The notes beneath the pieces were generated by a model that worked only from the letters and a program-made list of their open reading frames with translations, did not search any database and was not told the origin of the DNA. A stretch of DNA of 64,000 nt, from the NCBI GenBank assembly GCA_016179965.1, contig JACPCF010000019.1:561-64560 (forward strand), in the 5' to 3' direction. The DNA comes from Candidatus Rokuibacteriota bacterium. GTDB taxonomy: Bacteria; Methylomirabilota; Methylomirabilia; Rokubacteriales; CSP1-6. Made by a program: the position numbers and the translations under genes. Positions within the stretch are counted from its first letter, which is position 1, and every line of letters begins with the position of its first letter. Below, piece after piece: positions 1,061 to 39,573 of the stretch.

Positions 1061-1075
1061 AGACGTGCGGAAGCC

Positions 1076-1792
1076 TCAGGACGGGGCCAGGTCTTCGAAG
1101 ACCGCGCGGTAGAGACCATCCCAGAACCGGGCCCGGGCGCCCAAGGAGGCGTGGGCCCCCTCGAGAATGCGCTCGTGGTTCTCGGGCGTCTCGGCGTAGC
1201 GGGCTAGAGCCATCCGAAGGAGTCTCCCGTGCTCGAGGTCCTGGGCCACGTGCAGGGTGAAGTACTCCAGCGGTTTGTCCTCCACTCCGACCTTCCGAAG
1301 GCCCTCCACCAGGTAGGCGAACATCGTAGGGATCGCCCACTCATGGCCGGGGCCCACAGCCCCCAGCCCCACCAGATAGTGACGGAGCGAGGTCAGCTCG
1401 ATGTGATGGTTGATGAAGGCCCGGGTCTCCGGGAGGGCCTCCACGCGGTCCCAGTCTTCTTCGCTAAGCCCGAGGGCGCGCAGGAACCGCCGGTAGAGCG
1501 CGGGATGGGAGCAGTCATAGGTCTGAGGACGGGCGTACTCATCCTCCAGTACCATATGGATCCAGTCCCTCACCTCCTGCTCCGGGATGCTCTTGACCAG
1601 GGCTTCCAGATAGGTCGTGAACACCCGAACGAGCTGATAGTGCTGGAGACCAAAAGCCCAGAGCTGAATCCGTCGCAGGCCGCCCTCGGCGAACCGACGC
1701 AGGAAGGGGTGGTGCAGGGCGGGATGGCTTCGAACCTCGGCTTCCAAGCGCTGAAGGAAGAGCTCAGCGCGCGTGGGATCAGTTCCGGGCAT
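1076..1792 (-). CDS. TenA/PqqC-like (haem-oxygenase-like fold) iron-containing redox enzyme family protein
   Basis: ORF 1076..1906; likely start MPGTDP (ATG 1790-1792); helical E/H-rich translation typical of the PqqC/TenA superfamily. Confidence 0.55.
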   Translation of the reverse strand: MPGTDPTRAELFLQRLEAEVRSHPALHHPFLRRFAEGGLRRIQLWAFGLQHYQLVRVFTTYLEALVKSIPEQEVRDWIHMVLEDEYARPQTYDCSHPALYRRFLRALGLSEEDWDRVEALPETRAFINHHIELTSLRHYLVGLGAVGPGHEWAIPTMFAYLVEGLRKVGVEDKPLEYFTLHVAQDLEHGRLLRMALARYAETPENHERILEGAHASLGARARFWDGLYRAVFEDLAPS

Positions 1793-1805
1793 ATTTTGCT
1801 GGCCC

Positions 1806-2216
1806 TCAGAAGGTGAGGACCTTGTCGGCGGTCGCGACCTCTTCCAAGAGGAAGGCCGTAAGCCCGCGCACCTCGATGCCGTCGAGGAGATCCTCGGCCT
1901 CCACACCGCAAATCGCCATGGAGGAGCTACAGGCGTAGAGCCGCACGTCCCCGAGCTCCATTACCTGTCGCAAAAGCCCCGGCAGGTCTGTGAGCGCCAG
2001 GGCCGAGAGGCGCTCCCGCACCGCCGCCTCGTGCTCGCGATAAGCCTCCGAGAGGTTGATCTCCTGGACCCCTCTCTTGGTCACCTTGAGGACCGCCTCG
2101 TCGCGAAAGAACACCCTCACTGCCACCCCCGAGCTGACGGCCGCCATCAGCAGCGTCACAACTTGGACGAGGCTGTTGAAGTTGCCGTGCGAGGCGATGA
2201 CGGCCAGGGTGTTCAC
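1806..2216 (-). CDS. DsrE/DsrF-like sulfur-relay family protein
   Basis: C-terminal 136 aa of ORF 1806..2555 (VNTLAVIASHG..., Cys-containing YACSSSMAICG); GTG start at 2214-2216 overlaps the tusA-like stop. Confidence 0.6.
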   Translation of the reverse strand: MNTLAVIASHGNFNSLVQVVTLLMAAVSSGVAVRVFFRDEAVLKVTKRGVQEINLSEAYREHEAAVRERLSALALTDLPGLLRQVMELGDVRLYACSSSMAICGVEAEDLLDGIEVRGLTAFLLEEVATADKVLTF

Positions 2217-2512
2217 GGAGTGGGTTCGCCGGCCCGCTTCTGGACGAAGGAGACGATGAGCGAGCCCCAGCGGGCGTCGGGCTCCCGCCGGTGACCGAGG
2301 AACCGGTGGCCGGTGGTCCGGCACCAGGCAGGGTAGTCGTGCTCGGCGGCGAGGTCCGTCGAGAGCACTTTGACGACACCCGCCGGACCCACGGTCAGCA
2401 TCGCCCGCATCAGCCGGAGGATGCCCTGGGCGCAGAGCATCCCCCGGTTGTCCACCACGGTGGAGACCGTGCCTTCCTCGACCGGACGCCCCTCCCCGCT
2501 TACCAGTTCCAT
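2213..2512 (-). CDS. TusA-like sulfurtransferase
   Basis: 99 aa; DYPAWCRTTGHRF matches the TusA C-terminal signature; Cys in the LCAQG motif. Confidence 0.7.
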   Translation of the reverse strand: MELVSGEGRPVEEGTVSTVVDNRGMLCAQGILRLMRAMLTVGPAGVVKVLSTDLAAEHDYPAWCRTTGHRFLGHRREPDARWGSLIVSFVQKRAGEPTP

Positions 2513-2883
2513 ACTGTGTCGAACTGGTCCACGAACTTTCCCATCTCTTTCCCACTGAGGAGCTGGACTCCCTCGGTCAGCTCGTCTTTCTTGATCCCAC
2601 GCTCCTCCAGGTCTTCGCGCACGGCGTAGACGGGGATGTTCGCCTGGTGGACCGACTTGAGGTCGGTCTCAATCAGGAAGCCGGGCTGGACGAGCGTCCC
2701 GGCAATCCTAATCCCGGTCCCGTCCTGGCCGCGGACCGCATAGTTGACGGCGTCCCCCCGCAGGAGCAGCGTCAGGGGTTGCCCCGCCACCGAGGCAAAG
2801 GCGGAGGCGAAGAGGCCGATGTCGCTGTCCTCAAGGTTTCCGTACTCGGTGTGAGCGAGCACGGAGAGAATCTTCTTAGCCAT
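2500..2883 (-). CDS. DsrE/DsrF-like family protein
   Basis: 127 aa, MAKKILSVLAHTEYGN...; GGAGGG Shine-Dalgarno upstream of the start. Confidence 0.7.
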   Translation of the reverse strand: MAKKILSVLAHTEYGNLEDSDIGLFASAFASVAGQPLTLLLRGDAVNYAVRGQDGTGIRIAGTLVQPGFLIETDLKSVHQANIPVYAVREDLEERGIKKDELTEGVQLLSGKEMGKFVDQFDTVWNW

Positions 2884-2905
2884 GGCCCTGTCCCTCCGAT
2901 TTCTG

Positions 2906-3337
2906 TTAGTGGGCCGACATCAAGAGCGTCTTGTCGGCCTGGTCCGTGAACTTGTAGAGGTCCCCGAGCGTGCCGTGCACGACGGGATCGAGGTGGTAGC
3001 CCTGTGGAACGCCCCGTTCCACACAGCAGAGCCCTCAGACGTACCACTGGAGCTTGGGCTCGCTCTTCCCCTTCTCCAGGAGCCGGGCCACGAACTCCGC
3101 CGTGGTGTTGTGGGCCTTGCCCACGTCGGTGTGATGCGCGGCGTTGGTCTTCCAGATCGGGTCGTCGTGCTGGGCCTGGGCCTTGGCGGTGAGGAGCACG
3201 CCGTCCTCGTAGGCCAGCACGTTGACGTTGTACCCCTTGTCGAGGGCCGTGTCCACCAGCCGGAAGAGGCTGATGGGGGTCTCGTTGCCGTACGGTCCCG
3301 CCGTGATGCAGATGTGAAGGGTCTTCCGGTTCGCCAT
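2906..3337 (-). CDS. DsrE-like protein, candidate selenoprotein (in-frame TGA at 3035-3037 read as Sec)
   Basis: ORF 3035..3337 (100 aa) stops at TGA. The same frame continues 42 codons (GLCCVERGVPQGYHLDPVVHGTLGDLYKFTDQADKTLLMSAH) to TAA at 2906-2908. The KFTDQ(A)D segment parallels the KFVDQFD C-terminus of the neighbouring DsrE paralog. Confidence 0.55.
3003..3023 (-). promoter_or_regulatory. SECIS-like mRNA hairpin (UGUGGAACG-GGG-CGUUCCACA) 11 nt downstream of the in-frame UGA
   Basis: perfect 9-bp stem with 3-nt G-rich loop read directly from the sequence; position matches the bacterial SECIS spacing. Confidence 0.5.
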
Positions 3338-3349
3338 ATCGGGCTCCTC

Positions 3350-3679
3350 TCAATGCCAGATGGCTTTGTCTGACTTCTCCATCAGGAGGTCGATGAGTTC
3401 ATCCGCATTGCTCACCCGGACCCCCTCGGAGAGCCGCTCCTTGGTGATGCCGCGCTGTCGAAGAGAGATCTCGTCCGCCAGGAGCGTCAAGTTATGGGTC
3501 TTGGCCTCGGCCAGGAGCTTCTCACCCGCCTCGAAGCGCTTCCGCGCGGCGAAGACCGCATCCTGCACGAGATAGATCGTGACGTTGTGCCGGAGCTCCC
3601 GGAGCTGCTTCGCCAGCTCGAACGCGTGCTCCCCGCCCTCCAGCGGGCTCTTGGACTCGACTAAAAGGTACTGGGCCAT
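3350..3679 (-). CDS. DsrE/DsrF/DsrH-like family protein
   Basis: 109 aa, MAQYLLVESKSPLEGG... Confidence 0.6.
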   Translation of the reverse strand: MAQYLLVESKSPLEGGEHAFELAKQLRELRHNVTIYLVQDAVFAARKRFEAGEKLLAEAKTHNLTLLADEISLRQRGITKERLSEGVRVSNADELIDLLMEKSDKAIWH

Positions 3680-3696
3680 GTCTCTTCACCTCCTTT

Positions 3697-4512
3697 TCAG
3701 GCTTTCGTTCGGGTAATTGCCAGAGAGGGATCGGTGGGACGCACTGGATCCCGCTCAGCAACCGCACAAGAAGCGTCGAACCACCGGAGTCGGCCGCGCA
3801 AGCGAACGACATCGCCGATAACGGCGACCACAGGCGGCTGAAGCCCCGCGGCCTTGTCCAGGATGTCGGCGAGCGTGCCGGTGATCGTCTGCTGGGCTTC
3901 AGTCGTCCCCCAGCGGATGAGGGCCACGGGGGTCTCCGGGGAGCGACCGTGGGCCAGAAGCTCAGCGACGATCCGGGGCAGCGTCCGCGCCCCCATCAGG
4001 ACGACCAGGGTGTCCACCGCGGTCGCCAGCCGTTCCCACTCCACGGCGGGCTCACCCTTGCACCCGTCCTCGTGGCCCGTGACGACGGCGAAGGAGGACG
4101 CCAGCCCACGGTGGGTGAGGGGGATTCCCGCGTAGGCCGGCACCGCCACGGCCGAGCTGACCCCTGGCACGACCTCGAAGGGGATCCCCGCCGCCGCTAG
4201 AGCCTCTGCCTCCTCCCCGCCCCGGCCGAAGACGAAGGGATCGCCACCTTTCAGTCTGACTACCCGACGGCCGCGTCGAGCGTGGGCGATGAGGAGATCA
4301 TTGATCTGCTCCTGGGGCAGGCTGTGGCCGCCGGCGAGCTTGCCGGCAAAGATGCGCAGCGCGTCGGGCGGCGACTCGTCGAGCAGGATCGGGTTGACCA
4401 GGCGATCATAGATCACCACCTCGGCCTTCCGCAGCACTTCCAGGCCACGCACCGTCAGGAGACCAGGATCGCCCGGCCCCGCGCCGACCAGATAGACGGT
4501 GGCTACCCGCAT
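3697..4512 (-). CDS. cobA: uroporphyrinogen-III C-methyltransferase (sirohaem branch)
   Basis: VYLVGAGPGDPGLLT...GGDPFVFGRGGEE motifs; start MRVATV at 4512 overlaps the upstream gene by 10 nt. Confidence 0.9.
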   Translation of the reverse strand: MRVATVYLVGAGPGDPGLLTVRGLEVLRKAEVVIYDRLVNPILLDESPPDALRIFAGKLAGGHSLPQEQINDLLIAHARRGRRVVRLKGGDPFVFGRGGEEAEALAAAGIPFEVVPGVSSAVAVPAYAGIPLTHRGLASSFAVVTGHEDGCKGEPAVEWERLATAVDTLVVLMGARTLPRIVAELLAHGRSPETPVALIRWGTTEAQQTITGTLADILDKAAGLQPPVVAVIGDVVRLRGRLRWFDASCAVAERDPVRPTDPSLAITRTKA

Positions 4513-5138
4513 GTCCCCGCCCTGAGCCGCGACAAGAGACGCGCCTTGGCTTCGTCCCGGCGCCCTTCGGCGATCAGGCTCCGGAGGTCTCCGTCGAGCG
4601 CCCGGCGCCACGCCGCGCCGTCGGGAAGCCGCCCGCGCTCCTTCAGCTCCTGCCTGACCTCCGCCGCGACCTCGGCGAGCACGGCGTAATCCTCCGTGAA
4701 ATAGGCCTCGAGCTCGTCTCTCACCGCGCGGGACAGGGCCGGGCTCGCGCCTCCCGTGGCCACCGCCACCACGAGCGCCCCCCGCCGGACGACGGCGGGA
4801 AGAATGAAATCACAATGGGCTGGATCGTCGGCGGCGTTGACCCACACGCCCCGTTCCCTCCCTTCGCGGGCGACGGTCGCATTGACCTCCCCGCCGTCGG
4901 AAGCGGCAAAAGCCAACTCCGAGCCCGACAGATCGCCGGGGCGGTATTCCCGGGCCACGTGCCGGATTCGCCCCTCCCCGGCCAGCACCCCAAGGCGCGG
5001 GGTGAGCGCGGGACTGATCACCGTCACGGATGCTTCCGCGGCGATGAGGGCCTCCACCTTGTGCTCGGCCACCCGACCGCCGCCGATGACGACGCACCGT
5101 CGCCCGGCCACCTCGAGGAAGACCGGATAGTAGCCCAT
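4503..5138 (-). CDS. sirC: precorrin-2 dehydrogenase/sirohydrochlorin ferrochelatase (SirC/CysG N-terminal domain-like)
   Basis: 211 aa, Rossmann motif VVIGGGRVA and family resemblance. Confidence 0.8.
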   Translation of the reverse strand: MGYYPVFLEVAGRRCVVIGGGRVAEHKVEALIAAEASVTVISPALTPRLGVLAGEGRIRHVAREYRPGDLSGSELAFAASDGGEVNATVAREGRERGVWVNAADDPAHCDFILPAVVRRGALVVAVATGGASPALSRAVRDELEAYFTEDYAVLAEVAAEVRQELKERGRLPDGAAWRRALDGDLRSLIAEGRRDEAKARLLSRLRAGTCG

Positions 5139-5141
5139 CCC

Positions 5142-8027
5142 TCAGCCGTCCACGCCGTGGGGCGGCCGCCCCGGTGAGGGATCCCGGTCCGCCGCGGCGA
5201 CCTCGGCGCCGGCCAGGAATTCTCGGAGCTTGTCGTCGGTGTGACGGGCGCAGAACCGGCGGAAGTTCTCTCCGTTGACCCGCCCCGAAAGGTAAGTCTT
5301 GAGCAGCCGCTCGATGGCTGCCGGCACCTCGACCGCGGGAGCGCGGTAGCCGATGGGACGTGCTTTGGCCTGGTATTTCCCCACGGCCCCCCCCACGCAG
5401 AAGTAATAGGCATCCACCATCTGGCCTTCCACCTTCATCTTCTTCCCCTCGATCCCGATGTCCGCGATCCAGTGCTGCCCGCAGCTGTTGGGGCAGCCGG
5501 TGATGTGGATCTTGACGTGCTGTTCGAAACCGGGCAGGCGCGTTTCAAGATCCTCCACCAGCCAGCGGGCGAAGTTCTTCGTTTCGCTCAGCGCGAGCTT
5601 GCAGAACTCCGTCCCCGTGCAGGCGATGGTGCCCCGCCAGAAGGGCGAGGCGTCGATCCTGAACCCCGCGTCCCCGAGCTCCCGCGCCAGCCGCTCGGCG
5701 CGGTCCCGGCGGACGTTCAGGATGAGGAGGTTCTGCATGTTGGTCGTCCGGAGCTCCCCCGTGCCGTAGAGCTCCGCGAGGTCCGCCACGGCCCGCATCT
5801 CACCCGGAGACATGCGTCCGCGGAGGACGGCAATCCCCGCGTAGCAGTAGCCGTCCTGCCTCTGGGGGTGGATTCCCACGTGGTCCCGGTAGACGTCGTC
5901 CGGAGGATCCTCTGGGACCGCGGGGTCCAGGCTGAACCCCATCCGGCGTTCCAGCTCTTCCTGAAATCGCCCGGCCGTCCAGCCGTGGGTGAGGAAGAGG
6001 AACTTGAGTCGCGCCTTCTCCCGATTCTGGCGGAGGACGTCGCTGTCACGGAAGATCTCGGAGATCCCCTTTACGACGGGAAGAACCTGGTTCCAGCGCA
6101 CAAAGGCGTTGAGCCGGAGGCCGAGGTGCGGGTCGGTGGACAGCCCACCGCCTACCCGCACGGAGAAGCCGATCTCGCCGGTCTGGGGGTCCGGGAGAGC
6201 GGTCATTCCGATGTCGTTGATCTCCGGATACGAGCACCAGACCCGGCAGCCGGTGATGGAGATCTTGTACTTGCGCGGGAGGTTGTAGAAGTCAGGATTG
6301 CCGTTCAGCATCCCGGTCGCCGCACGGACCAGCGGGGAGGCGTCCACGACCTCGTCGGCGTCCACGCCGGCCAGCGGGCAGCCGGTGACGTTGCGGGTGT
6401 CGTCGCCGCAGGCGCCCATCGTGGTGATGCCGCACCGCCAGAGGCTTTGAAAGATCTCCGGGAGGTCCTCGATCTTCACCCAGTGGAGCTGGACGTTCTG
6501 CCGGACGGTGATGTCCGCGACCCCGCGCGCGTGCCTCTCCGCGAGGTCGGCAAGGGTCCGGAGCTGGTGGGAGAGGAGGAAGCCGTTGGGGAGGCGGATC
6601 CGGACCATGAAATAGGGCACCGCCTTGCCTTCGCCCCCCTTTCCCCCCACCGCGCCGATGCCATCGCCCTGGGTGTACACCCCCCACCAGCGGAAATACG
6701 TATTGAGCCACTCGGCCGGGATCGATTGATAGCCCTCGCGGGCGAACCGGACGATCTCCGAATAGGCGTCCCACGGGTTCAGCGCGCGCTTGAGCCGCTC
6801 GGCCCGCTGGGCCTTGGTCTCTTTCACGGGCTCTGCCGGGGCGCGAGGAGTCTCGGGCCCCCGCACCCAATTCCGCAGGATTTCGGCCACTTCCGGACGG
6901 GTAAACTCCGCGGGGAGAGGCTCCCCCCGCCCCAAGAGTTCGCGTACCAGGCTCCCGCTCAGGGCCATCCGGTCCGACGGATTGTGCGGGCAGGTTTTGG
7001 GAGACGTAATGGCCTCGCACCGACGGCAGTAGAAGGTCTCATCGAAAAAGAGGGGGACGACGCCGAGCTCCTCGGAGGCGAACCGGCGGAAGATCTCGTC
7101 CACCGTCAGCGGGGAGGACGCGGTCTCGACCCCCGCGTATTCGCGCCCGACAATAAAGTGGGTGCAGCCATAATTCTTCCGGACGAGGGCGTGGAAGAGC
7201 GTCTCTCTGGGGCCCGCATACCGCATCGCGCCAGGAAACACCGCCAGCACCACGCGGTCCTTGGGGTAGTACTGCTCGACCAGAACCTGGTAGCAGCGGA
7301 CGCGGACCTCCGAGGGAACCTCGTCGAGCTTGGTCTGCCCCACAAGCGGGTGGATGAGGAGGCCGTCGAGCGGCTCCAACGCGCACTTCTGCACGTATTC
7401 ATGGGCGCGGTGGATGGGGTGCTGGCTCTGAAATCCGACGACGGTGCGCCACCCAAGCGCCTCGAACCGAGCCCGCGTCGCGGAGGGATCGAGACGGTAG
7501 GCCTCGAACCCCTTCAGGGGAGGACGGGTGATCAGGTCCACCTTTCCGGCCAGAAGCACATCGCCCCGGCTAAGCTGATACTGGGCCCCGGGGTGACGGG
7601 GGTCCTCCGTCCCGTAGACCAGGCGGGCCTCCTCGCGCCCATCGTAGGGGAAACGCTCTTTCAGGTGCAGGATGCCGAGCGGCTCCTCCCATGGGGACAC
7701 GAGGGCCACCTCTTCCCCTTCCCTCAACACGTCGGCGTCAGCGCGCCGGACCGCCAGCGTGATCGGCAGAGGCCAGGGAAGGCCGTTGGCCAGGCGCATC
7801 TCCTGAAGGACGCTCCGGTAGTCGGCCTCACCGATGAACCCTTCGAGGGGGCTGTAGGCCCCGACCGCGATCAGCTCGACATCGGACATCGTGCGGGCGT
7901 TCAGGGCGATACGCTTCAACGAGGAAACGCGCCGGCCGGCCTCATCTCGGGCTTCGCCACGGAGGACTCGATCGACCAGCACCCCACCGTGGGGGGGAAT
8001 CGTGGTTCCTACGGACGCCTGAGTCAT
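5142..8027 (-). CDS. fusion protein: N-terminal sulfate adenylyltransferase (ATP sulfurylase) + C-terminal sirohaem ferredoxin-type sulfite reductase hemoprotein
   Basis: single uninterrupted 972-codon ORF. N-terminal part has IPPHGG...QSQHPIHRAHE...GREYAGVE; C-terminal part has the 4Fe-4S/sirohaem Cys cluster CTGTEFC...CPNSC. Likely start MTQASV (ATG 8025-8027). Confidence 0.85.
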   Translation of the reverse strand: MTQASVGTTIPPHGGVLVDRVLRGEARDEAGRRVSSLKRIALNARTMSDVELIAVGAYSPLEGFIGEADYRSVLQEMRLANGLPWPLPITLAVRRADADVLREGEEVALVSPWEEPLGILHLKERFPYDGREEARLVYGTEDPRHPGAQYQLSRGDVLLAGKVDLITRPPLKGFEAYRLDPSATRARFEALGWRTVVGFQSQHPIHRAHEYVQKCALEPLDGLLIHPLVGQTKLDEVPSEVRVRCYQVLVEQYYPKDRVVLAVFPGAMRYAGPRETLFHALVRKNYGCTHFIVGREYAGVETASSPLTVDEIFRRFASEELGVVPLFFDETFYCRRCEAITSPKTCPHNPSDRMALSGSLVRELLGRGEPLPAEFTRPEVAEILRNWVRGPETPRAPAEPVKETKAQRAERLKRALNPWDAYSEIVRFAREGYQSIPAEWLNTYFRWWGVYTQGDGIGAVGGKGGEGKAVPYFMVRIRLPNGFLLSHQLRTLADLAERHARGVADITVRQNVQLHWVKIEDLPEIFQSLWRCGITTMGACGDDTRNVTGCPLAGVDADEVVDASPLVRAATGMLNGNPDFYNLPRKYKISITGCRVWCSYPEINDIGMTALPDPQTGEIGFSVRVGGGLSTDPHLGLRLNAFVRWNQVLPVVKGISEIFRDSDVLRQNREKARLKFLFLTHGWTAGRFQEELERRMGFSLDPAVPEDPPDDVYRDHVGIHPQRQDGYCYAGIAVLRGRMSPGEMRAVADLAELYGTGELRTTNMQNLLILNVRRDRAERLARELGDAGFRIDASPFWRGTIACTGTEFCKLALSETKNFARWLVEDLETRLPGFEQHVKIHITGCPNSCGQHWIADIGIEGKKMKVEGQMVDAYYFCVGGAVGKYQAKARPIGYRAPAVEVPAAIERLLKTYLSGRVNGENFRRFCARHTDDKLREFLAGAEVAAADRDPSPGRPPHGVDG

Positions 8028-8135
8028 GCGCCGGTGCCCCTGTGTCGGAGAAAGGTACACTTTCCGATCAAGAATGTCAAGAAGTAACGTAAATCCAGGA
8101 AAGGCAATTACTTCGGGGTGGCTGGGGCAGCCCGT

Positions 8136-9530
8136 CTAGACCAGAACCAGGCCGGCGGCGGCTTCGCCGGAGTGGACGCAGTCGGAGATGCCAACGCCGC
8201 AGTAGGCGCTCCCGGCGAGCGCCAGCCCCGGATGGCCAACCAGCCGCCGCTCGATCGCCGCCACAGTCTCCAGGTGGCCCACGTGGTACTGGGCCATCGA
8301 GGCCGGGTAGCGGTGGACGCGGGTGAGCAGGGGCGGTGCTGTCACGCCGAGCAGCTCGTTCAGCTGGGCCCTCACGATCGCCGCCATCCGCGCGTCGTCC
8401 TCCTTGAGGATGCCCTCGTCGAGGGGGCCGCCGACGAAAACGCGAAGCAGGGCGTGACCAGGCGGGGCCCGCCCCGGGTACTTCACGCTGGAGAAGGTGC
8501 AGGCCAGGAGCGGGCGACGCTCGATCCGGGGCACGACGAAGCCGAAGCCGTCCAGCGGATGGGCGATCTCCTCCCGGCGGTAGGCGAGCGCGACCGTCGC
8601 CGATGAGGCGTACGGAATCGCCTCAAGAAGATGGGCCAGGCTCGGGTCGAGGGCGCGGACCATGCGCGCGGCCTGGGGCGCCTCGGCCGCCACGATGACC
8701 GCATCCGCGTCCACGCCGCTTCCGTCGGCCAAGCCCACACGCCAGCGGCCACCGTCGCGCCGGAGCCCGACGACCCGTTCCTTGAGCCTCACCGAGCCCG
8801 GCGGGAGGCGATCGCCGAGCGCGCGCGTGAACTCTTCCATCCCGTCCGCAAACGTGACGAAGAGGCTCCAGCGGGCGCCGCTCACCCCTTGGGCCTTCCG
8901 GGACGCGCGCCAGAGCGCCAGGATGAGGCTCCGGTGGGCTCGCTCCATCTCGAGGAAGCGCGGCATGGTCGCCGCCAGGCTCAGGAGATCCGGGTCGGCC
9001 GTGTAGATCCCCGCCACCAGCGGCTGGGCCACTCGCTCCAGCGCTTCGACGCCGAGCCGGCGGCGGACGAAGGACCCGAGGCTCTCATCCTCCGAGCCGA
9101 CCCTCCGCGGCAGCACAACGTCCATCGCCATCCTGAGCTTGCCCCGCCACGAAAAGAGTCGCGAGGAGAGCAGCGGCCCCAGGCGCGCGGGGGCCAGGAG
9201 CTGAAAGCCCTCGGGGAGCGGCTCGAGGCGCCCGCGGAAGACCACCCAGGTCTGGCGGAACCGGTCGTCGGTGCGAACGAGCCGGCCCGCGAGGCCGAGC
9301 CGCTCCGCCAGCGCCAGAGCCCAGGGTTTTTCCGAGATGAAGGAGTCGGGGCCGGCCTCGATCAGGAAGCCCTGGGTGCGCTCGGTGGCGATGGTGCCGC
9401 CGAGACGGTCACGCGCTTCCAGAAGGGTGAGGTCGATCGGCTCGCCGCGCTCGCGGGAAAGCTCGGTGAGCCGGTGAGCCGCGGCGAGGCCGCCAATCCC
9501 GCCGCCCACCACGACCACCCGGCGCGCCAC
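8136..9530 (-). CDS. hemY: protoporphyrinogen/coproporphyrinogen III oxidase (HemY/CgoX family)
   Basis: FAD motif VVVVGGGIGGLAAA; proposed GTG start at 9528-9530. Confidence 0.8.
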   Translation of the reverse strand: MARRVVVVGGGIGGLAAAHRLTELSRERGEPIDLTLLEARDRLGGTIATERTQGFLIEAGPDSFISEKPWALALAERLGLAGRLVRTDDRFRQTWVVFRGRLEPLPEGFQLLAPARLGPLLSSRLFSWRGKLRMAMDVVLPRRVGSEDESLGSFVRRRLGVEALERVAQPLVAGIYTADPDLLSLAATMPRFLEMERAHRSLILALWRASRKAQGVSGARWSLFVTFADGMEEFTRALGDRLPPGSVRLKERVVGLRRDGGRWRVGLADGSGVDADAVIVAAEAPQAARMVRALDPSLAHLLEAIPYASSATVALAYRREEIAHPLDGFGFVVPRIERRPLLACTFSSVKYPGRAPPGHALLRVFVGGPLDEGILKEDDARMAAIVRAQLNELLGVTAPPLLTRVHRYPASMAQYHVGHLETVAAIERRLVGHPGLALAGSAYCGVGISDCVHSGEAAAGLVLV

Positions 9531-9534
9531 GTCG

Positions 9535-10473
9535 TTACGCCCTGAGACCAGCCTTCGCCAGGCCGGCCAGCATCTCGATGAAAGCCGGGTGGTCGTTGAC
9601 GGCGCCGGCGCGATGGAAACGAAGCCCCAGCTCCTCCGCCAGCCGGCGCGCCTCGACGTCCAGGTCGTAGAGCACCTCGACGTGGTCCGAGACAAAGCCG
9701 ATTGGCGCGACCACCACGTCGCCCACGCCCTCCTTGGCCAGCCCGCGCAGGACGTCGCAGATGTCAGGCTCGAGCCAGGGATCGGGCGGCGAGCCACTCC
9801 GGCTCTGATAGGCCACCGACCATCGGGGATAACCGAGCCGTGCCGCCACAGCGCGCGAGGCCGCCGTGAACTGGGCCACGTACGGCGAGCCGTCGGCCAT
9901 CGCCGTGGGAACGCTATGCGCGGTGAAGACGAGCGGCGTGGCCTTCCTTCTGTCCGCGGGAATCGCGGACAAGACGGCCCTCACCCGATCCCCCGCGGCC
10001 TCGATGAAGCGCGGATGGTCGAACCAGGGCGGAGCGTACGAGACCTCCGGCGCCCCCGGGCCCACCTTCTCCCGGGCGGCCGCGACGTCGCCCACGTAGC
10101 GGTCCCAGGAGGCCTCCGTCTCAAAGGACGACAGGATGATCCCCAGGGCGCGCCGGTGGCCCTTGTCTTTCATCTCCGCCAGCGCCTCGTGAAAGAACGG
10201 GTGCCAGTTCCTCATGCCGACGTAGACGGGCACGGAGAGGCCGTCGCGCGTCAAGGCGCGGCGCAGCCCCTCCGCCTGGAGAAGCGTGAGATCGTTCAGC
10301 GGGGAGCGACCGCCGATGACTTCGTAATGGTGCGCTACTTCTTCGAGGCGCTCGGCAGGAATGTGCCGGCCCGCGGTGACGATCTGGAGGAAGGGGCGGA
10401 TGTCCTCGGGCTTTTCCGGGCCGCCGAAGGCGATCAGCAAGACCGAATCCACCACGCTCATGGCCGCGCCCAC
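9535..10473 (-). CDS. hemH: ferrochelatase (HemH/CpfC)
   Basis: 312 aa, LLIAFGGPEKPEDIRPFL...; alternative start ATG at 10461. Confidence 0.85.
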   Translation of the reverse strand: MGAAMSVVDSVLLIAFGGPEKPEDIRPFLQIVTAGRHIPAERLEEVAHHYEVIGGRSPLNDLTLLQAEGLRRALTRDGLSVPVYVGMRNWHPFFHEALAEMKDKGHRRALGIILSSFETEASWDRYVGDVAAAREKVGPGAPEVSYAPPWFDHPRFIEAAGDRVRAVLSAIPADRRKATPLVFTAHSVPTAMADGSPYVAQFTAASRAVAARLGYPRWSVAYQSRSGSPPDPWLEPDICDVLRGLAKEGVGDVVVAPIGFVSDHVEVLYDLDVEARRLAEELGLRFHRAGAVNDHPAFIEMLAGLAKAGLRA

Positions 10474-10477
10474 AGCA

Positions 10478-11593
10478 CTATCTCGCGTCGTTCGAGCGCG
10501 GGCTTTGCCCGCGCAACCCCGGGGGGGAGGAATCGGAAGGGGGGCGGAGCCCCCCTCCGAGCGAAGACAGCTCGTGAACCATCTCCACCATCGCGATCAC
10601 GTGCTCCACGGACGTCTCGGGGAGGACCCCGTGGCCGAGGTTGAAGATGTGGCCGGGCCGGGCGGCGGCCCGATCGAGGATCGCCCGGACATGCCGCTTG
10701 ATCTCGGCGGGCTTCGCGAGCAGCACGGCCGGGTCGAGGTTCCCCTGGACCGCCACGTCGTAGCCGATGCGCTTCCAGGCGTCGGCCAGGTCCACGCGCC
10801 AGTCGAGACCGATCACGTCCCCCCCCGCCTCGCGCAGCAGCTCGAGCAGGCCCGCGGTGCCCGTGCTGAAGTGGATGACGGGAACGCCCGGCGTGAGCCC
10901 TTTGATGACGGCGCGCGTATGGGGCAGGACGAACTCGCGGTAGGCGTCGGGCGAGAGCGCCCCCACCCAGGAGTCGAAGAGCTGCACGGCCTGGGCGCCC
11001 GCGGCGATCTGGCCGTTCACGTAGCCGACGGTGACCCTGACGAGGCGCTCCATGAGGGCGTGCCACGCGGCGGGATCGTCGTGCATCAGCCGCTTCGTGT
11101 GGAGATACTCGCGGGACGCGCTGCCCTCGATCAGGTAGGAGGCCACCGTGAAGGGCGCGCCGGCGAAGCCGATCAGCGGCACTCGCGCGGCCAGCGCCTT
11201 GCGCACCGTGCGGATCGCCTCGAAGACGAAGGGCGTCGCCTCCCGGGGGTCCACGTCCGCCAGCCGCCGGAGATCCGCCGCGCCGCGCACGGGACGGTGG
11301 ATGAGGGGCCCTTCCCCCTTGGCGAACTCCAGGCCCACCCCCATGGGCTCAACCGGCAGGAGAATGTCGGCGAAGATGATCGCGGCGTCCACGCCGAGGC
11401 GCTCCACCGGCAAGAGAGTCACCTCGGCAGCCGCCTCGGGATTCTTGCAGAGCTCCAGGAAGCCGAACCGCTCGCGGAGCGCGCGGTACTCGGCCATGAA
11501 GCGCCCCGCCTGGCGCATGAGCCAGACCGGGGTGAACTCGGTGGGCTCGCGCCGGCACGCGCGGAGAAAGGGAGCGGGCGCCGCGGCGTTCAT
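10478..11593 (-). CDS. hemE: uroporphyrinogen decarboxylase
   Basis: PVWLMRQAGR motif; start MNAAAP (ATG 11591-11593). The last ~28 codons are encoded by repeat family 1 copy A. Confidence 0.85.
   Translation of the reverse strand: MNAAAPAPFLRACRREPTEFTPVWLMRQAGRFMAEYRALRERFGFLELCKNPEAAAEVTLLPVERLGVDAAIIFADILLPVEPMGVGLEFAKGEGPLIHRPVRGAADLRRLADVDPREATPFVFEAIRTVRKALAARVPLIGFAGAPFTVASYLIEGSASREYLHTKRLMHDDPAAWHALMERLVRVTVGYVNGQIAAGAQAVQLFDSWVGALSPDAYREFVLPHTRAVIKGLTPGVPVIHFSTGTAGLLELLREAGGDVIGLDWRVDLADAWKRIGYDVAVQGNLDPAVLLAKPAEIKRHVRAILDRAAARPGHIFNLGHGVLPETSVEHVIAMVEMVHELSSLGGGLRPPSDSSPPGLRGQSPRSNDAR
10491..10562 (+). repeat. repeat family 1, copy A (short form: hairpin GAGCGCGGGCTTTGCCCGCGC + GGGGGGCGGAGCCCCCCTCCGAG)
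   Basis: direct comparison with copies B to E. Confidence 0.8.
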
Positions 11594-11651
11594 GGATGAT
11601 CGAGCGTACAGGAAGCGCCGCGGATTGACAACTCTCGGCACCTGGGCGACC

Positions 11652-35571: not shown

Positions 35572-35789
35572 ATCGCGAACCCCGTCTGGCGGATTTCCGC
35601 CTCGATTTCCTTCTGGGTCCGGCGGTCCACTCGACGCCGCCCCGGCTCGTTGGCTTCGGCGCGCCGCCGACGCTCCGCCTGCCGCCGATCCAGCATCACC
35701 CGGACGGTCGGAATCCCCGAAAACCACCCTCTCAGGTAGTCGCAGAGGTCGGGCTTATCTTGGGCGACGACGAAGAGGTACTGGGCCAT
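35550..35789 (-). CDS. small hypothetical protein (79 aa, basic C-terminus)
   Basis: strong GGAGGAGG Shine-Dalgarno; its stop abuts the M20 N-terminal region in another frame. Confidence 0.5.
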   Translation of the reverse strand: MAQYLFVVAQDKPDLCDYLRGWFSGIPTVRVMLDRRQAERRRRAEANEPGRRRVDRRTQKEIEAEIRQTGFAIIGNSSS

Positions 35790-38230: not shown

Positions 38231-38235
38231 TTACT

Positions 38236-38314
38236 GGCGGGGTCGACGGGATTTGAACCCGCGGCCTCTGGATTGACAGTCCAGTGTGCTAACCAGGCTG
38301 CACCACGACCCCGC
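38236..38314 (-). tRNA. tRNA-Asp (anticodon GTC)
   Basis: cloverleaf read by hand: acceptor GCGGGGT, anticodon loop cuGUCaa, T-loop GGTTCAAATCC. Confidence 0.8.
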
Positions 38315-38343
38315 GCGCACTTACGATACCATACCGCACTGGA

Positions 38344-38404
38344 CTTTGCCCCACTTGGCCCAAAACTTTGCCCTACTCGCGCTCGACTTTGCCCACTTTG
38401 CCCT
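38344..38404. repeat. four direct copies of ACTTTGCCC at 21-bp phasing spanning the integrase stop codon (candidate recombinase arm-type sites)
   Basis: copies starting 38344, 38365, 38386, 38395. Confidence 0.45.
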
Positions 38405-39500: not shown

Positions 39501-39573
39501 ACGGGAACCCTAGGGCCAGCCGCGCGAGTCGTCAAGTGTATCGTCTTTTAGACAGGGGAGACCGTTGGGGCCC

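What the first reader, a model, noticed from the sequence alone, without database searches (positions are those of the whole stretch)
1076..11593. 10.5-kb unidirectional tetrapyrrole-plus-sulfur array: hemE-hemH-hemY, sat~sir fusion, sirC, cobA, four DsrE-family genes, tusA-like, TenA/PqqC-like
All twelve genes are co-directional, with overlaps or gaps of 17 nt or less except one of 75 nt. The array couples protohaem synthesis (no hemF/hemN alongside hemY and hemH), sirohaem synthesis (the cofactor of the fused sulfite reductase), and a full set of persulfide-carrier proteins. The carrier set is four DsrE/DsrF/DsrH-like paralogs, one a selenoprotein candidate, plus a TusA-like protein and a di-iron/HO-like-fold protein of unknown role. 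In characterised systems DsrEFH/TusA belong to dissimilatory sulfur oxidation or tRNA thiolation, not assimilatory sulfite reduction. Their presence directly downstream of sat~sir, with cysH absent, points to a possibly undescribed route in which reduced sulfur from the reductase is handed to a protein persulfide relay, or the reverse.
Basis: inference. Interest (0 to 1): 0.7.

Follow-up and report, generated by a model that had tools for sequence, protein, structure and literature searches.

The report
Sulfite-reductase operon plus selenoprotein sulfur-carrier cassette
The twelve-gene run is real, but it is three separately evolving units placed end to end in an uncultured Rokubacteria genome: a haem operon, a sulfite-reductase/sirohaem operon, and a five-gene sulfur-carrier cassette containing a selenoprotein, with the last two linked only by a shared regulatory DNA motif.

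Summary
All twelve genes exist at the stated coordinates, on the minus strand, tightly packed. The array is a composite.

- **Haem unit:** hemE-hemH-hemY is an ordinary haem operon.
- **Sulfite-reductase unit:** the Sat~Sir fusion, sirC and cobA have their own conserved promoter-like element. The fusion is real (56 homologue clusters). Its Sat half has lost the QXRN and GRD(H)AG catalytic motifs, which stand-alone Sat of relatives keeps.
- **Carrier cassette:** DsrH-like, Sec-DsrE-like (UGLCC), DsrF-like, TusA-like and DsrE2B-like genes keep this order in about 90 other loci. TGA is conserved in 84/84 loci, followed by a nucleotide-invariant SECIS-like hairpin. Cys homologues carry CGLC.

The cassette travels independently of sat/sir. 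Only 1 of 47 other loci with enough upstream sequence lies near sir-cobA, and 0 of 4 fusion-bearing relatives have it.

One link remains. A 14-bp palindrome found just before the cassette in most other loci is the top hit of the whole window, inside the sat~sir promoter. It is missing before the cassette here. This suggests one regulon and, in this genome, an operon fusion.

Verdict: a new variant of known kinds; moderate interest.

The parts
10478..11593 (-). hemE, uroporphyrinogen decarboxylase (371 aa)
   Evidence: PF01208 at 440 bits. Syntenic with L001 and L002.
9535..10461 (-). hemH, ferrochelatase (308 aa)
   Evidence: PF00762 at 290 bits.
8136..9530 (-). hemY-type (copro/proto)porphyrinogen oxidase (464 aa)
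   Evidence: PF01593. TIGR00562 at 299.5 bits against a cut-off of 97.85.
8052..8080 (-). Promoter-like element upstream of sat~sir: TTGACA (8080-8075), 17-nt spacer, TACCTT (8057-8052)
   Evidence: Conserved in the window, L001, L002 and L004, including L004 where hemEHY is not upstream. Not found by the simple consensus scan.
8062..8075 (-). 14-bp palindrome-like operator candidate ATTCTTGATCGGAA, inside the promoter spacer
   Evidence: A PWM built only from 59 cassette-leader sites elsewhere scores this site 19.7 bits. It is the top hit of 127,974 window positions; the next best is 14.2 bits. The IUPAC pattern has a single match in the window, with 0.10 expected. The equivalent top hits occur in L001, L002 and L019.
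5142..8027 (-). Sat-like~Sir fusion (961 aa): PUA_2 plus an ATP-sulfurylase-like domain (residues about 1-390), a linker, then a NirA-type sirohaem/[4Fe-4S] sulfite/nitrite reductase (about 400-961)
   Evidence: Domains. Fifty-six clusters longer than 900 aa share the architecture. The Sat half has QS[QH][QH]P and GREYA[GAS] in place of QTRNP and GRD(H/A)AG. The Sir half is closest to 1ZJ8, M. tuberculosis NirA. CTGTEFC and CPNSC cysteine motifs are visible in the sequence.
4503..5138 (-). sirC/CysG-N-like precorrin-2 dehydrogenase, possibly also the chelatase (211 aa)
   Evidence: TIGR01470 at 165.5 bits against a cut-off of 62.3; PF13241 and PF14824.
3697..4512 (-). cobA, uroporphyrinogen-III C-methyltransferase (271 aa)
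   Evidence: NF004790 at 318 bits against a cut-off of 198; TIGR01469.
3350..3679 (-). DsrH/TusB-like subunit (109 aa, no Cys), first gene of the cassette
   Evidence: PF02635 and PF04077. Best solved match to the profile is DsrH 2HY5_C, E 0.009. It is 36-44% identical to the H gene of the Cys-type trio.
2903..3337 (-). Sec-containing DsrE-like subunit (144 aa; U101, motif UGLCC)
   Evidence: TGA in 84/84 loci and the frame is conserved downstream. All 51 database homologues are truncated at residue 100. Cys homologues carry CGLC at the same place. PF02635. Best solved match is DsrE 2HY5_A; the C-terminal part aligns to the Cys motif of YchN.
3035..3037 (-). In-frame UGA read as selenocysteine
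3003..3023 (-). SECIS-like hairpin UGUGGAACG-GGG-CGUUCCACA, starting 11 nt after the UGA
   Evidence: The 56-nt region spanning the UGA and this hairpin folds at -27.3 kcal/mol, z = -3.1. Codons +5 to +10 show no third-position change in 65 distinct sequences, whereas 10 of the next 11 codons show 15-33 changes.
2500..2883 (-). DsrF/TusC-like subunit (127 aa, no Cys)
   Evidence: PF04077 and PF02635, just above cut-off. The profile hits YchN and DsrF 2HY5_B, E 0.01. It is 33-40% identical to the F gene of the Cys-type trio.
2213..2512 (-). TusA-like carrier (99 aa; invariant C27 and C64; CAQG instead of CPxP)
   Evidence: PF01206 at 41.2 bits against a cut-off of 28.6. Cys conservation. Closest solved proteins are 1PAV and E. 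coli TusA.
1806..2216 (-). DsrE2B-like carrier (136 aa; invariant C96)
   Evidence: PF02635 and PF13686. Closest solved protein is 2QS7 (SSO1126), which Liu et al. call DsrE2B, E 3.9e-10. C96 is invariant.
1076..1792 (-). Haem-oxygenase-like (di-iron) family protein, CADD/BesC-related (238 aa); not part of the cassette
   Evidence: PF14518 at 100 bits. TIGR04305 at 86.5 bits, below its 200 cut-off. Closest solved proteins are 4-aminobenzoate synthase/CADD and BesC. Among about 90 cassette loci it is nearby only in L029, 3.2 kb away.

Best explanation
The array is three or four independently evolving units that lie end to end in one Candidatus Rokubacteria (Methylomirabilota) genome.

**Unit 1: haem.** hemE-hemH-hemY is a haem-branch operon.

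**Unit 2: sulfite reduction.**
- It encodes a NirA-type sirohaem sulfite reductase, N-terminally fused to a diverged, probably non-catalytic ATP-sulfurylase-like domain.
- It also encodes the two enzymes that make the reductase's cofactor from uroporphyrinogen III (cobA, sirC).
- It is driven by its own promoter-like element, which carries a palindromic operator-like motif.

**Unit 3: the carrier cassette.** It encodes a DsrEFH-like trio in the order H-E-F, followed by a TusA-like and a DsrE2B-like carrier. The E subunit carries selenocysteine in a UxxC motif, at the position of the DsrE-family active-site cysteine.

**Unit 4: a haem-oxygenase-like di-iron gene** that does not belong to the cassette.

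**How the cassette came to be here.** In most genomes it sits elsewhere, with its own promoter and the same operator-like motif. In this genome it sits 17 nt behind cobA without either. It is therefore most likely transcribed by read-through from the sulfite-reductase promoter.

**Inferred mechanism.**
- Sulfane sulfur (persulfide or thiosulfonate) is carried on TusA Cys27 and DsrE2B-like Cys96.
- It is passed to Sec101 of the H-E-F complex.
- The neighbouring Cys104/105 can then resolve the Se-S adduct.
- The cassette and Sir belong to one sulfur-responsive regulon, for example thiosulfate or sulfane-sulfur assimilation with the sulfite fraction reduced by Sir. They are not an obligate, physically coupled Sir-to-relay pathway.

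**Shown versus inferred.**
- Shown: gene content, Sec recoding signals, independent distribution, and the shared motif.
- Inferred: co-transcription, the direction of sulfur flow, the regulator, and loss of Sat activity.
For: **Composite nature.**
- Four relatives with the same fusion (73-94% identity class) carry hemEHY and/or sir2-hemD-cysH-TauE-sat-sirC-cobA, but no cassette.
- DNA synteny with L001 and L002 breaks exactly at the cobA 3' end and resumes in the Mo-hydroxylase gene.
- The cassette order H-E-F-TusA-DsrE2B is invariant in the loci from the genome and metagenome scans. Its flanks fall into many unrelated groups.
- Only L019 among 47 loci with at least 1.5 kb upstream has sir-sirC-cobA nearby, and there an ATP-grasp-like ORF lies between.

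**Selenocysteine.**
- TGA is present in 84/84 loci and all 51 database homologues are cut at residue 100.
- The frame downstream is conserved with synonymous changes.
- The hairpin is invariant at wobble positions and stable.
- Cys homologues have CGLC at this site.
- A UxxC DsrE-like selenoprotein family is described (PMC1088965, PMC13188914).
- A Methylomirabilota genome bin is reported with 63 selenoproteins.

**Resemblance to DsrEFH.** Each of the three proteins hits its corresponding A. vinosum subunit: best hit for H and E, second after YchN for F. Each is also a one-to-one orthologue of a widespread Cys-type three-gene unit.

**Own promoter for sat~sir:**

**Shared motif.**
- A PWM trained only on cassette leaders gives its top hit, in the whole window and in L001, L002 and L019, at the sir promoter.
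- The motif is absent before the cassette in the window, in L019 and in the SoxYZ-led group, where the cassette follows co-directional genes.

**Diverged Sat domain.** QXRN and GRD motifs are altered in 56/56 fusions but kept in stand-alone Sat encoded in the same clusters of relatives. The roles of these motifs are described in PMC6607087.

**Sulfur-related neighbours of the cassette elsewhere:** SoxYZ, a YeeE-type transporter and an MBL-rhodanese fusion.
Against: - There are no expression data. Read-through from cobA into the cassette is inferred only from the 17-nt gap and the lack of a promoter or motif there.
- Consensus scans found no terminator or promoter either way.
- The operator-like motif is AT-rich in a 68% GC genome, so intergenic DNA is favoured a priori. 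No regulator was identified.
- In the more distant L105 the best motif hit is not at the sir promoter.
- Matches of the trio to DsrE, DsrF and DsrH are weak (E about 0.01-0.05), and all NCBIfam equivalog cut-offs are missed.
- Single-sequence structure models were unusable.
- Loss of ATP-sulfurylase activity is inferred from motifs only. HXXH is retained and the NCBIfam subfamily model still scores above its cut-off.
- Sec-insertion genes are not in the window.
- Two loci (the window and L019) do place the cassette behind sir-sirC-cobA. This may be more than chance.
Confidence: 0.6

Rival explanations
1. The array is one dedicated pathway in which sulfide (or sulfite) made or used by the fused Sat~Sir is handed directly to the DsrE/TusA persulfide relay. 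This would be an undescribed assimilatory, or reverse, route.
For: - The cassette follows cobA by 17 nt on the same strand.
- A second genome, L019, also has sir-sirC-cobA about 1 kb upstream of the cassette.
- The shared operator-like motif links sir promoters and cassette leaders.
- In L105, TusA, rhodaneses and YeeE lie in one cluster with Sir.
Against: - In 46 of 47 other loci with enough upstream sequence the cassette is not near sir, sat or cobA.
- None of four fusion-bearing relatives has it.
- The juxtaposition is an indel at one chromosomal site.
- The Sat half lacks QXRN and GRD motifs.
- cysH is missing here only because of a local deletion relative to relatives.
- There is no DsrC, Hdr or Rhd partner in the window.
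Confidence: 0.12
2. The cassette is a TusBCD/TusA-type relay that feeds tRNA thiolation or thio-cofactor synthesis. It has nothing to do with sulfite reduction.
For: - Eleven of 47 loci have TtuA (a tRNA thiolation ATPase) and a ThiS-like TtuB within 1-6 kb.
- JGI names several homologues 'tRNA 2-thiouridine synthesizing protein D'.
- TusBCD is the closest characterised relative of DsrEFH-type trios.
Against: - TtuA/ThiS are on the opposite strand and are separated from the cassette by NUDIX, anti-sigma and ECF-sigma genes. This looks like conserved synteny of one subclade.
- TIGR03010/03011/03012 equivalog cut-offs are missed by a wide margin.
- No TusE/DsrC or MnmA is adjacent.
- The operator-like motif is shared with sir promoters, not shown for ttuA.
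Confidence: 0.12
3. The cassette handles selenium rather than sulfur (delivery, storage or detoxification of selenide or selenopersulfide), by analogy with YedF, which joins a TusA-like and a DsrE-like domain carrying a CGxC motif.
For: - The E subunit has UGLC, and its Cys homologues CGLC. [quoted passage not shown]
- TusA-like and DsrE-like proteins are encoded together.
- The phylum is reported to be selenoprotein-rich.
Against: - NCBIfam did not report the YedF model for any of the cassette proteins.
- No selD, selA, selB or yedE-type selenium gene was found in the window or the examined flanks.
- The informative neighbours elsewhere are sulfur genes: SoxYZ, YeeE-type and MBL-rhodanese.
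- The motif is shared with the sulfite reductase promoter.
Confidence: 0.08
4. Pure coincidence. The cassette is a dissimilatory sulfur-oxidation accessory, feeding rDsr or sHdr encoded elsewhere, that happened to insert behind cobA. The shared motif is a generic AT-rich leader or promoter feature.
For: - Some Rokubacteria carry dsrAB with dsrEFH and are proposed sulfur oxidisers (PMC6018805).
- DsrEFH type II of cable bacteria is syntenic with tusA and yeeE and passes sulfur to DsrC (PMC13293266).
- The cassette's contexts are highly variable.
Against: - No dsr or hdr genes lie in the window, or among the flanking genes of the cassette loci that were annotated; these were the recurrent and immediately adjacent ones.
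- The PWM hit at the sir promoter is the single best site in 128,000 positions, and this repeats in three other genomes.
- Only a handful of sites of at least 15.5 bits occur outside those two classes in about 0.8 Mb.
Confidence: 0.08

Closest known systems
DsrEFH / TusBCD sulfur-transferase heterohexamer (type I; A. vinosum 2HY5, E. coli 2D1P)
   Same: - Three small adjacent genes of the DsrE/DsrF/DsrH fold.
- Only the E subunit carries the reactive residue, within the DsrE-family Cys...RG motif.
- A TusA partner is encoded alongside.
- The PDB hits of the three proteins include DsrH, DsrE and DsrF respectively: best hit for H and E, second after YchN for F.
   Different: - Gene order is H-E-F, not E-F-H.
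- The active residue is selenocysteine in a UxxCC motif rather than a lone Cys78.
- There is an insertion of about 30 residues in E.
- NCBIfam equivalog scores are far below cut-off.
- No DsrC/TusE, DsrAB or MnmA is nearby.
DsrEFH type II of cable bacteria and sulfate reducers (PMC13293266, 2026)
   Same: - A DsrEFH-like trio too divergent for standard sequence-based annotation.
- It is transcribed with tusA and is often next to yeeE/yedE. Here tusA always follows, and a YeeE-type gene follows in the L010/L014 group.
   Different: - Type II uses Cys67 and is reported mostly in Desulfobacterota and Nitrospirota with reductive dsrAB.
- This family has Sec/Cys at about residue 101 in a CxxC motif, adds a DsrE2B-like gene, and occurs in Methylomirabilota without adjacent dsr genes.
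- Sequence membership could not be tested because no type II sequences were available.
DsrE-like selenoprotein family (UxxC; Zhang, Fomenko and Gladyshev 2005; 2026 review)
   Same: A PF02635 protein with an in-frame UGA in a UxxC motif, a downstream hairpin and Cys-containing homologues.
   Different: - The published family is a list entry with unknown function and no described partners.
- Here the selenoprotein is the E subunit of a conserved three-gene DsrEFH-like set within a five-gene cassette.
- Whether it is the same sequence cluster as the published Sargasso Sea or Desulfovibrio members was not tested.
DsrE2B/DsrE3A-TusA carriers of Sulfolobales and Aquificae (Liu et al. 2014, PMC4175335)
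   Same: The last two cassette genes are a TusA-like protein and a soluble DsrE whose closest solved relative is SSO1126, called DsrE2B. The conserved Cys aligns (FACSTTM against YACSSSM).
   Different: - There is no hdr or lipoamide-dehydrogenase context.
- TusA has CAQG instead of CPxP.
- The NCBIfam DsrE2 model scores 24.9 against a cut-off of 210.
NirA/SirA ferredoxin-dependent sulfite reductase of M. tuberculosis (1ZJ8), with sirohaem supply genes
   Same: - The Sir half is closest to 1ZJ8 (E 3e-90).
- It has the two NIR_SIR repeats and the cysteine motifs.
- It sits with cobA and sirC and, in relatives, with cysH.
   Different: - It is N-terminally fused to an ATP-sulfurylase-like domain that has lost QXRN and GRD(H)AG.
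- I found no description of such a fusion.
- Sulfite versus nitrite specificity is untested.
hemEHY operon (coproporphyrin-dependent haem branch of Firmicutes and Actinobacteria; from my own knowledge, Dailey et al. 2015/2017)
   Same: The same three genes in the same order. Absence of hemF/hemN is expected in that pathway.
   Different: The pathway type (CgoX/CpfC versus PgoX/PpfC) and the presence of ChdC/HemQ elsewhere were not tested.

Membership tests
DsrEFH/TusBCD (type I) | Three adjacent genes, each of the DsrE/DsrF/DsrH fold | tested here: met
   PF02635 and PF04077 above cut-off for all three. Profile hits to 2HY5 chains C, A and B respectively, but weak (E 0.009-0.047).
DsrEFH/TusBCD (type I) | Scores above the NCBIfam equivalog cut-offs for TusD/DsrE, TusC/DsrF and TusB/DsrH | tested here: not met
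   18.1 against 89.25; 18.8 against 94.15; 30.1 and 24.9 against 49.2.
DsrEFH/TusBCD (type I) | A single reactive Cys (Cys78 equivalent) in the E subunit | tested here: inconclusive
   The position is occupied by Sec101, and by Cys in homologues. It is part of a UxxCC/CxxC motif that type I lacks.
DsrEFH/TusBCD (type I) | Acceptor (DsrC/TusE) and pathway genes (dsrAB or mnmA) in the neighbourhood | tested here: not met
   None in the 64-kb window, nor among the flanking genes of cassette loci that were annotated.
DsrEFH/TusBCD (type I) | Formation of an alpha2-beta2-gamma2 complex | not testable with these tools
   Only single-chain prediction is offered. The single-sequence models were unusable: pLDDT 43.9, and a one-helix artefact.
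DsrEFH type II | Sequence or structure match to the cable-bacteria trio with active Cys67 | not testable with these tools
   No type II sequences were held. Only the synteny with tusA (always) and yeeE (some loci) is shared.
Bacterial selenoprotein (DsrE-like, UxxC) | Conserved in-frame UGA with coding continuity downstream | tested here: met
   TGA in 84/84 loci. The downstream 43 codons are conserved with synonymous changes.
Bacterial selenoprotein (DsrE-like, UxxC) | SECIS-type hairpin shortly after the UGA with G in the apical loop | tested here: met
   The hairpin at 3003-3023 has a GGG loop. The region folds at -27.3 kcal/mol, z = -3.1. There is no wobble variation across it in 65 sequences. 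No Rfam model matched.
Bacterial selenoprotein (DsrE-like, UxxC) | Homologues with Cys aligned to Sec | tested here: met
   CGLC, CVLC or CGPC at the same position in homologues of about 33-44% identity.
Bacterial selenoprotein (DsrE-like, UxxC) | Sec-insertion machinery (selA, selB, selC, selD) in the genome | not testable with these tools
   Not in the window, and the rest of the genome is not available. The literature reports many selenoproteins in the phylum.
TusA | Pfam TusA domain with a conserved N-terminal Cys | tested here: met
   PF01206 at 41.2 bits against 28.6. C27 is invariant in 34 sequences and aligns to the TusA Cys.
TusA | CPxP motif around the active Cys | tested here: not met
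   The motif is LCAQG, conserved across the family. The NCBIfam TusA equivalog scores 21.9 against 78.
DsrE2B | Closest to the DsrE2B prototype, with a conserved Cys | tested here: met
   2QS7 (SSO1126, DsrE2B) at E 3.9e-10, with the Cys aligned. However, the NCBIfam DsrE2 model scores 24.9 against 210.
ATP sulfurylase (Sat) | PUA_2 plus ATP-sulfurylase domains, and the family model above cut-off | tested here: met
   PF14306 and PF01747. NF003166 at 481 bits against 387.
ATP sulfurylase (Sat) | Catalytic motifs QXRN, HXXH and (V)GRDHAG | tested here: not met
   The fusion has QSQH, HRAH (kept) and GREYAG. This holds in 56/56 fusions, while stand-alone Sat of relatives keeps QTRN and GRDAAG. 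Motif roles are from PMC6607087.
Sirohaem sulfite/nitrite reductase (NirA/Sir) | Two NIR_SIR_ferr + NIR_SIR repeats and the Cys ligands of sirohaem-[4Fe-4S] | tested here: met
   CTGTEFC and CPNSC are seen in the sequence. 1ZJ8 is the best solved match. NCBIfam equivalog cut-offs are missed (394 against 594).
Sirohaem sulfite/nitrite reductase (NirA/Sir) | Sulfite rather than nitrite as substrate | not testable with these tools
   This is only contextual: cysH, sat and TauE lie beside the fusion in relatives.
Haem-oxygenase-like di-iron oxidases (CADD/BesC/PqqC superfamily) | Family domain above cut-off; membership of the CADD subfamily | tested here: inconclusive
   PF14518 at 100 bits against 28.9 is met. 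TIGR04305 at 86.5 against 200 is not met. Metal ligands were not examined.
Coproporphyrin-dependent haem pathway | hemE-hemH-hemY together, with ChdC/HemQ instead of HemF/HemN | not tested
   The three genes are present. ChdC was not looked for outside the window, and the oxidase subtype was not resolved.

The most novel reading that the evidence does not exclude
Methylomirabilota possess a third type of DsrEFH-like complex. Its reactive residue is selenocysteine in a UxxC motif. Together with a TusA variant and a DsrE2B-like carrier, it belongs to the same sulfur-responsive regulon as the assimilatory sulfite reductase. It would work as a selenium-dependent sulfane-sulfur or thiosulfonate processing relay, for example splitting thiosulfate into sulfide and the sulfite that Sir then reduces. 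The Sat-like domain fused to Sir would act as a ligand-sensing or docking module rather than an enzyme.
Probability: 0.25. Interest if true: 0.7.

Novelty: new variant of a known kind. Interest (0 to 1): 0.45.

Why it matters
**DsrEFH-type carriers.**
- They are used as genomic markers to decide whether an uncultured organism oxidises or reduces sulfur.
- A conserved, selenocysteine-bearing DsrEFH-like set is not linked to dsr or hdr genes. It appears co-regulated with an assimilatory sulfite reductase.
- It would be a further case where that marker logic does not apply.
- It would also give one long-listed but functionless 'DsrE-like selenoprotein' a defined set of partners to test.

**The Sat~Sir fusion.** Its catalytic motifs are degenerate. 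This is a caution for automated pathway calls ('sat present') in Rokubacteria, a widespread uncultured phylum.

**The palindromic motif.** It offers a concrete handle for defining a sulfur regulon in a phylum with no isolates.

Tried and rejected
- **Consensus promoter/terminator scan of 900-12000.** It found nothing useful. The promoter-like element only emerged from cross-genome alignment.
- **Rfam at gathering thresholds.** Only tRNA-Asp was found. No SECIS or riboswitch family matched.
- **Look-up of P0060,** the depositor's 608-aa call on this contig. Not on record.
- **Single-sequence models of the F-like and H-like subunits.** Both were unusable: pLDDT 43.9, and a single long helix at odds with the family's alpha/beta fold. 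No fold searches were run.
- **Mo-cofactor sulfuration idea.** The cassette is convergent with a Mo-hydroxylase here, and two Cys-type trios abut Mo-hydroxylases.
  - Rejected as a general link because two other Cys-type contexts lack them.
  - In addition, no Sec-type locus other than the window showed the gene.
  - The adjacency here is inherited synteny.
- **PFR motif as a Sat discriminator.** Dropped because stand-alone Sat of this lineage also lacks the Arg.
- **Motif test in L105 (unfused sir).** The best hit is before the YNCE-propeller gene, not before sir. The regulon claim therefore rests on the window, L001, L002 and L019 only.
- **A first PWM-free pattern search** was partly circular, because the pattern had been drawn from both site classes. 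It was replaced by a PWM trained only on cassette leaders.

Full report
**1. Observation**

The window is 68% GC. Third-position GC shows that every gene of the finding is on the minus strand. ORF reading, start-codon inspection and domain scans give twelve genes.

| Gene | Coordinates |
|---|---|
| hemE | 10478-11593 |
| hemH | 9535-10461 |
| hemY-type oxidase | 8136-9530 |
| Sat-like~Sir fusion (PUA_2 + ATP-sulfurylase + two NIR_SIR repeats, 961 aa) | 5142-8027 |
| CysG-N/SirC-like | 4503-5138 |
| cobA | 3697-4512 |
| DsrH-like | 3350-3679 |
| DsrE-like with in-frame TGA | 2903-3337 |
| DsrF-like | 2500-2883 |
| TusA-like | 2213-2512 |
| second DsrE-like | 1806-2216 |
| Haem_oxygenas_2/TENA-family protein | 1076-1792 |

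There are two corrections.
- The large gap is 108 nt, not 75. The GTG at 8060 lies inside a conserved promoter-like element, and homologues are 961 aa.
- One other gap is 19 nt.

The array is bounded by a divergent TPP-enzyme gene (from 11661) and a convergent Mo-hydroxylase gene (2-1060). A long co-directional run is not unusual here, because the plus strand has a similar one from 11.6 to 33 kb.

**2. Organism and the fusion**

Homologues of the fusion carry Candidatus Rokubacteria/Rokuibacteriota/Methylomirabilota names. One cluster from a 65-kb NCBI contig is 100% identical over 608 aa.

Fifty-six clusters longer than 900 aa share the four-domain architecture, so the fusion is not an assembly artefact.

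The Sat half is unusual. It was aligned to solved ATP sulfurylases and to the stand-alone Sat of relatives.
- Every fusion has QS[QH][QH]P where canonical enzymes have QTRNP.
- Every fusion has GREYA[GAS] in place of GRD(H/A)AG.
- HXXH is kept.
- The stand-alone Sat encoded in the same clusters of relatives keeps QTRNP and GRDAAG.

QXRN anchors the phosphosulfate group, and alanine replacements in the GRD loop reduce or abolish activity (PMC6607087). I therefore infer, without having shown it, that the fused domain is not a normal ATP sulfurylase.

The Sir half is closest to M. tuberculosis NirA (1ZJ8) and keeps the cysteine motifs.

**3. Neighbourhoods of the fusion**

In four relatives the fusion is flanked by hemEHY upstream (L001, L002). 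Downstream lie various combinations of a second NIR_SIR protein, hemD, cysH, TauE, a canonical sat, sirC and cobA. None has DsrE or TusA genes.

DNA comparison with L001 is collinear from the TPP gene to the end of the fusion, then sirC-cobA, then the Mo-hydroxylase gene. It shows two indels.
- The window lacks the 5.6-kb sir2-hemD-cysH-TauE-sat segment.
- The window has 2.7 kb, spanning the diverged 3' end of cobA, the five carrier genes and the haem-oxygenase-like gene, where L001 has about 340 bp.

'cysH absent' is therefore a local deletion. No cysH, TauE, hemD or second sat exists anywhere in the 64 kb.

**4. The carrier genes are a self-contained cassette**

A search with the second DsrE paralogue found 51 close homologues. 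All are 99-112 aa long (nearly all exactly 100) and all end where the TGA lies.

Contexts from look-ups, a genome scan (20 loci) and a metagenome scan (68 loci) were mapped with tblastn.
- The order H-like, E(TGA), F-like, TusA-like, DsrE-like is the same wherever the contig is long enough.
- Three loci carry only H-E followed by an MBL-fold gene.

Flanks fall into many unrelated groups.
- ECF sigma/anti-sigma, NUDIX and TtuA-ThiS (about 11-12 loci).
- An alpha/beta hydrolase.
- SoxYZ plus a YNCE-type propeller upstream, with a YeeE-type transporter downstream.
- An MBL-rhodanese fusion.
- Cupredoxin-FTR1.
- Others.

Of 47 loci with at least 1.5 kb upstream, only L019 has sir-sirC-cobA. There sir is unfused and an ATP-grasp-like ORF intervenes. 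The haem-oxygenase-like gene recurs only once, 3.2 kb away in L029.

**5. Selenocysteine**

- The codon is TGA in 84 of 84 loci.
- The 43 codons after it are conserved with synonymous changes.
- Eleven nucleotides after the UGA lies the hairpin UGUGGAACG-GGG-CGUUCCACA. The 56-nt region spanning the UGA and this hairpin folds at -27.3 kcal/mol, z = -3.1.
- In 65 distinct sequences the six codons forming the hairpin show no third-position change. Ten of the next eleven codons show 15-33 changes. That is the signature of selection on the RNA.
- An exhaustive profile-free search found more distant full-length homologues with Cys at the same place, as CGLC, CVLC or CGPC.
- U101, C104 and C105 are conserved.

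A 'DsrE-like' selenoprotein family with a UxxC motif has been listed since 2005, with unknown function (PMC1088965, PMC13188914). A Methylomirabilota genome bin is reported with 63 selenoproteins.

**6. What the cassette resembles**

The Cys-type homologues belong to a large family (3474 proteins at E no greater than 1e-5). They occur as a three-gene unit of 108/109, 137 and 126 aa in the same order. The window's first three proteins are one-to-one orthologues at 33-44% identity.

Profiles of the three proteins hit the corresponding A. vinosum subunits in the PDB, though only at E about 0.01-0.05.
- The H-like and E-like profiles have DsrH and DsrE as their best hits.
- The F-like profile hits DsrF second, after YchN.

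All NCBIfam equivalog cut-offs are missed.

Conserved residues also fit a relay.
- Only E has reactive residues.
- TusA-like keeps C27, in a CAQG rather than a CPxP context.
- The last gene keeps C96 and is closest to SSO1126, called DsrE2B by Liu et al..

The nearest described analogue in organisation is DsrEFH type II of cable bacteria. That trio is transcribed with tusA beside yeeE and was shown to be a sulfur transferase (PMC13293266). I could not test sequence membership.

I read the cassette as a DsrEFH-like complex with a Sec active site, plus two feeder carriers. The UxxC motif is absent from type I DsrE. It suggests that the Se-S adduct can be resolved by the neighbouring Cys, which would be redox chemistry rather than pure transfer. 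This step is inference.

**7. Transcription units and a shared motif**

Alignment of the hemY-to-fusion spacer across genomes shows a conserved TTGACA-17 nt-TAnnnT element. It is present in the window, L001, L002 and L004, where hemEHY is absent. The sulfite-reductase unit therefore appears to have its own promoter, separate from hemEHY.

Most cassette loci elsewhere have their own TTGACA-type promoter 40-60 nt upstream. They also have a conserved block (consensus ATTCTCGAYCGGAA, palindrome-like) just before the ribosome-binding site.

I trained a PWM only on 59 such sites and scanned other sequence with it.
- In the window the single best hit among 127,974 positions is 8062-8075, inside the fusion's promoter spacer. 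It scores 19.7 bits against 14.2 for the next hit.
- The top hits in L001 and L002 are at the equivalent place.
- In L019 the top hit directly follows a TTGACA upstream of the unfused sir.
- Only a handful of other sites of at least 15.5 bits occur in about 0.8 Mb.
- The IUPAC pattern has one match in the window, with 0.1 expected.

Conversely the motif is missing (below 11 bits) before the cassette in 19 of 70 distinct loci. These include the window, L019 and the SoxYZ-led group, where the cassette follows co-directional genes.

My reading is one regulator and one regulon. In this genome the cassette has lost its own control region and rides on the sulfite-reductase promoter.

Caveats:
- The motif is AT-rich in a GC-rich genome.
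- No regulator was identified.
- In the more distant L105 the best hit is elsewhere.

**8. Wider context**

L105 shows that in this phylum an unfused Sir can lie in one co-directional cluster with the following genes:
- an Rrf2 regulator;
- two cysteine-synthase-like genes;
- ThiS-ThiF;
- JAB;
- YeeE halves;
- two rhodaneses;
- TusA;
- the YNCE propeller;
- then hemD-cysH-TauE.

TusA-like YeeD works with YeeE in assimilatory thiosulfate uptake (PMC11073785). Protein sulfur carriers next to assimilatory genes are therefore not unprecedented. The premise that TusA/DsrE proteins belong only to dissimilatory oxidation or tRNA thiolation is too narrow.

Nothing else in the window relates to sulfur or selenium.

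**9. Verdict**

The proposed dedicated Sir-to-relay route is not supported by gene neighbourhoods, but a regulatory connection is suggested.

The parts are new variants of known kinds:
- a Sec-bearing DsrEFH-like/TusA/DsrE2B cassette;
- a sulfite reductase fused to a motif-degenerate Sat-like domain.

Interest is moderate. The strongest open lead is the shared operator together with the UxxC selenocysteine chemistry.

Noticed in passing
window 38235-39509 and 40000-48000: A tRNA-Asp gene lies directly beside a tyrosine-integrase gene. It is followed by a stretch of lower GC (0.61-0.63 against about 0.68). This may be an integrated island.
   Followed up: no
window 5142-8027 (depositor's annotation): The public record of what seems to be this contig carries only a 608-aa 'nitrite reductase' that is 100% identical to the C-terminal 63% of the ORF (P0060). 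The fusion is apparently not annotated as such there. The look-up of that protein failed.
   Followed up: partly
L099 6664-10222; L101 119-2395, 6660-7805 and 10455-12803: The Cys-type H-E-F trio lies directly next to, or within about 2.5-4.5 kb of, xanthine-dehydrogenase-family Mo-hydroxylase large-subunit genes in two of four contexts examined. A role in sulfurating the Mo cofactor was considered but not supported.
   Followed up: partly
L023, L069, L072 (e.g. L072 2455-4089): A two-gene variant of the cassette. DsrH-like and Sec-DsrE-like are followed 23 nt later by an MBL-fold gene instead of the F-like, TusA and DsrE2B-like genes. There is no operator-like motif upstream. L023 is binned as Acidobacteria.
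   Followed up: partly
L105 1221-15995: An unfused sir lies in one co-directional cluster with Rrf2, two PALP enzymes, ThiS-ThiF, split YeeE, two rhodaneses, TusA, a YNCE propeller, JAB, hemD, cysH and TauE. This looks like CysO/CysM-type thiocarboxylate cysteine synthesis joined to thiosulfate uptake and sulfite reduction.
   Followed up: partly
L004 19482-19649: A 55-aa Rdx/SelW-family ORF in a relative, probably another selenoprotein truncated by gene calling.
   Followed up: no
L001 12906-14702 and L004 12923-14713: Relatives encode a second NIR_SIR protein of about 597 aa, only about 35% identical to the fused Sir half, immediately after the fusion. They also encode a canonical sat. These genomes therefore keep two reductase paralogues and two Sat paralogues in one cluster.
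   Followed up: no
L012, L021, L024, L023, L028 (record titles): Some cassette-bearing contigs are binned as Rhodothermales, Gemmatimonadales, Acidobacteria or Binatia, although their cassette's Sec-DsrE-like protein is 75-89% identical to the Rokubacteria one. This is either mis-binning or recent transfer.
   Followed up: no
window 3703-3716: A degenerate copy of the operator-like motif (TTACCCGAACGAAA, 10.5 bits) lies inside the 3' end of cobA, 37 nt before the DsrH-like start. It may be a relic of the cassette's former control region.
   Followed up: no
window 35571-35789 (minus strand): A homologue (47% identity) of the 80-aa ORF that follows cobA in L001 lies elsewhere in the window.
   Followed up: no
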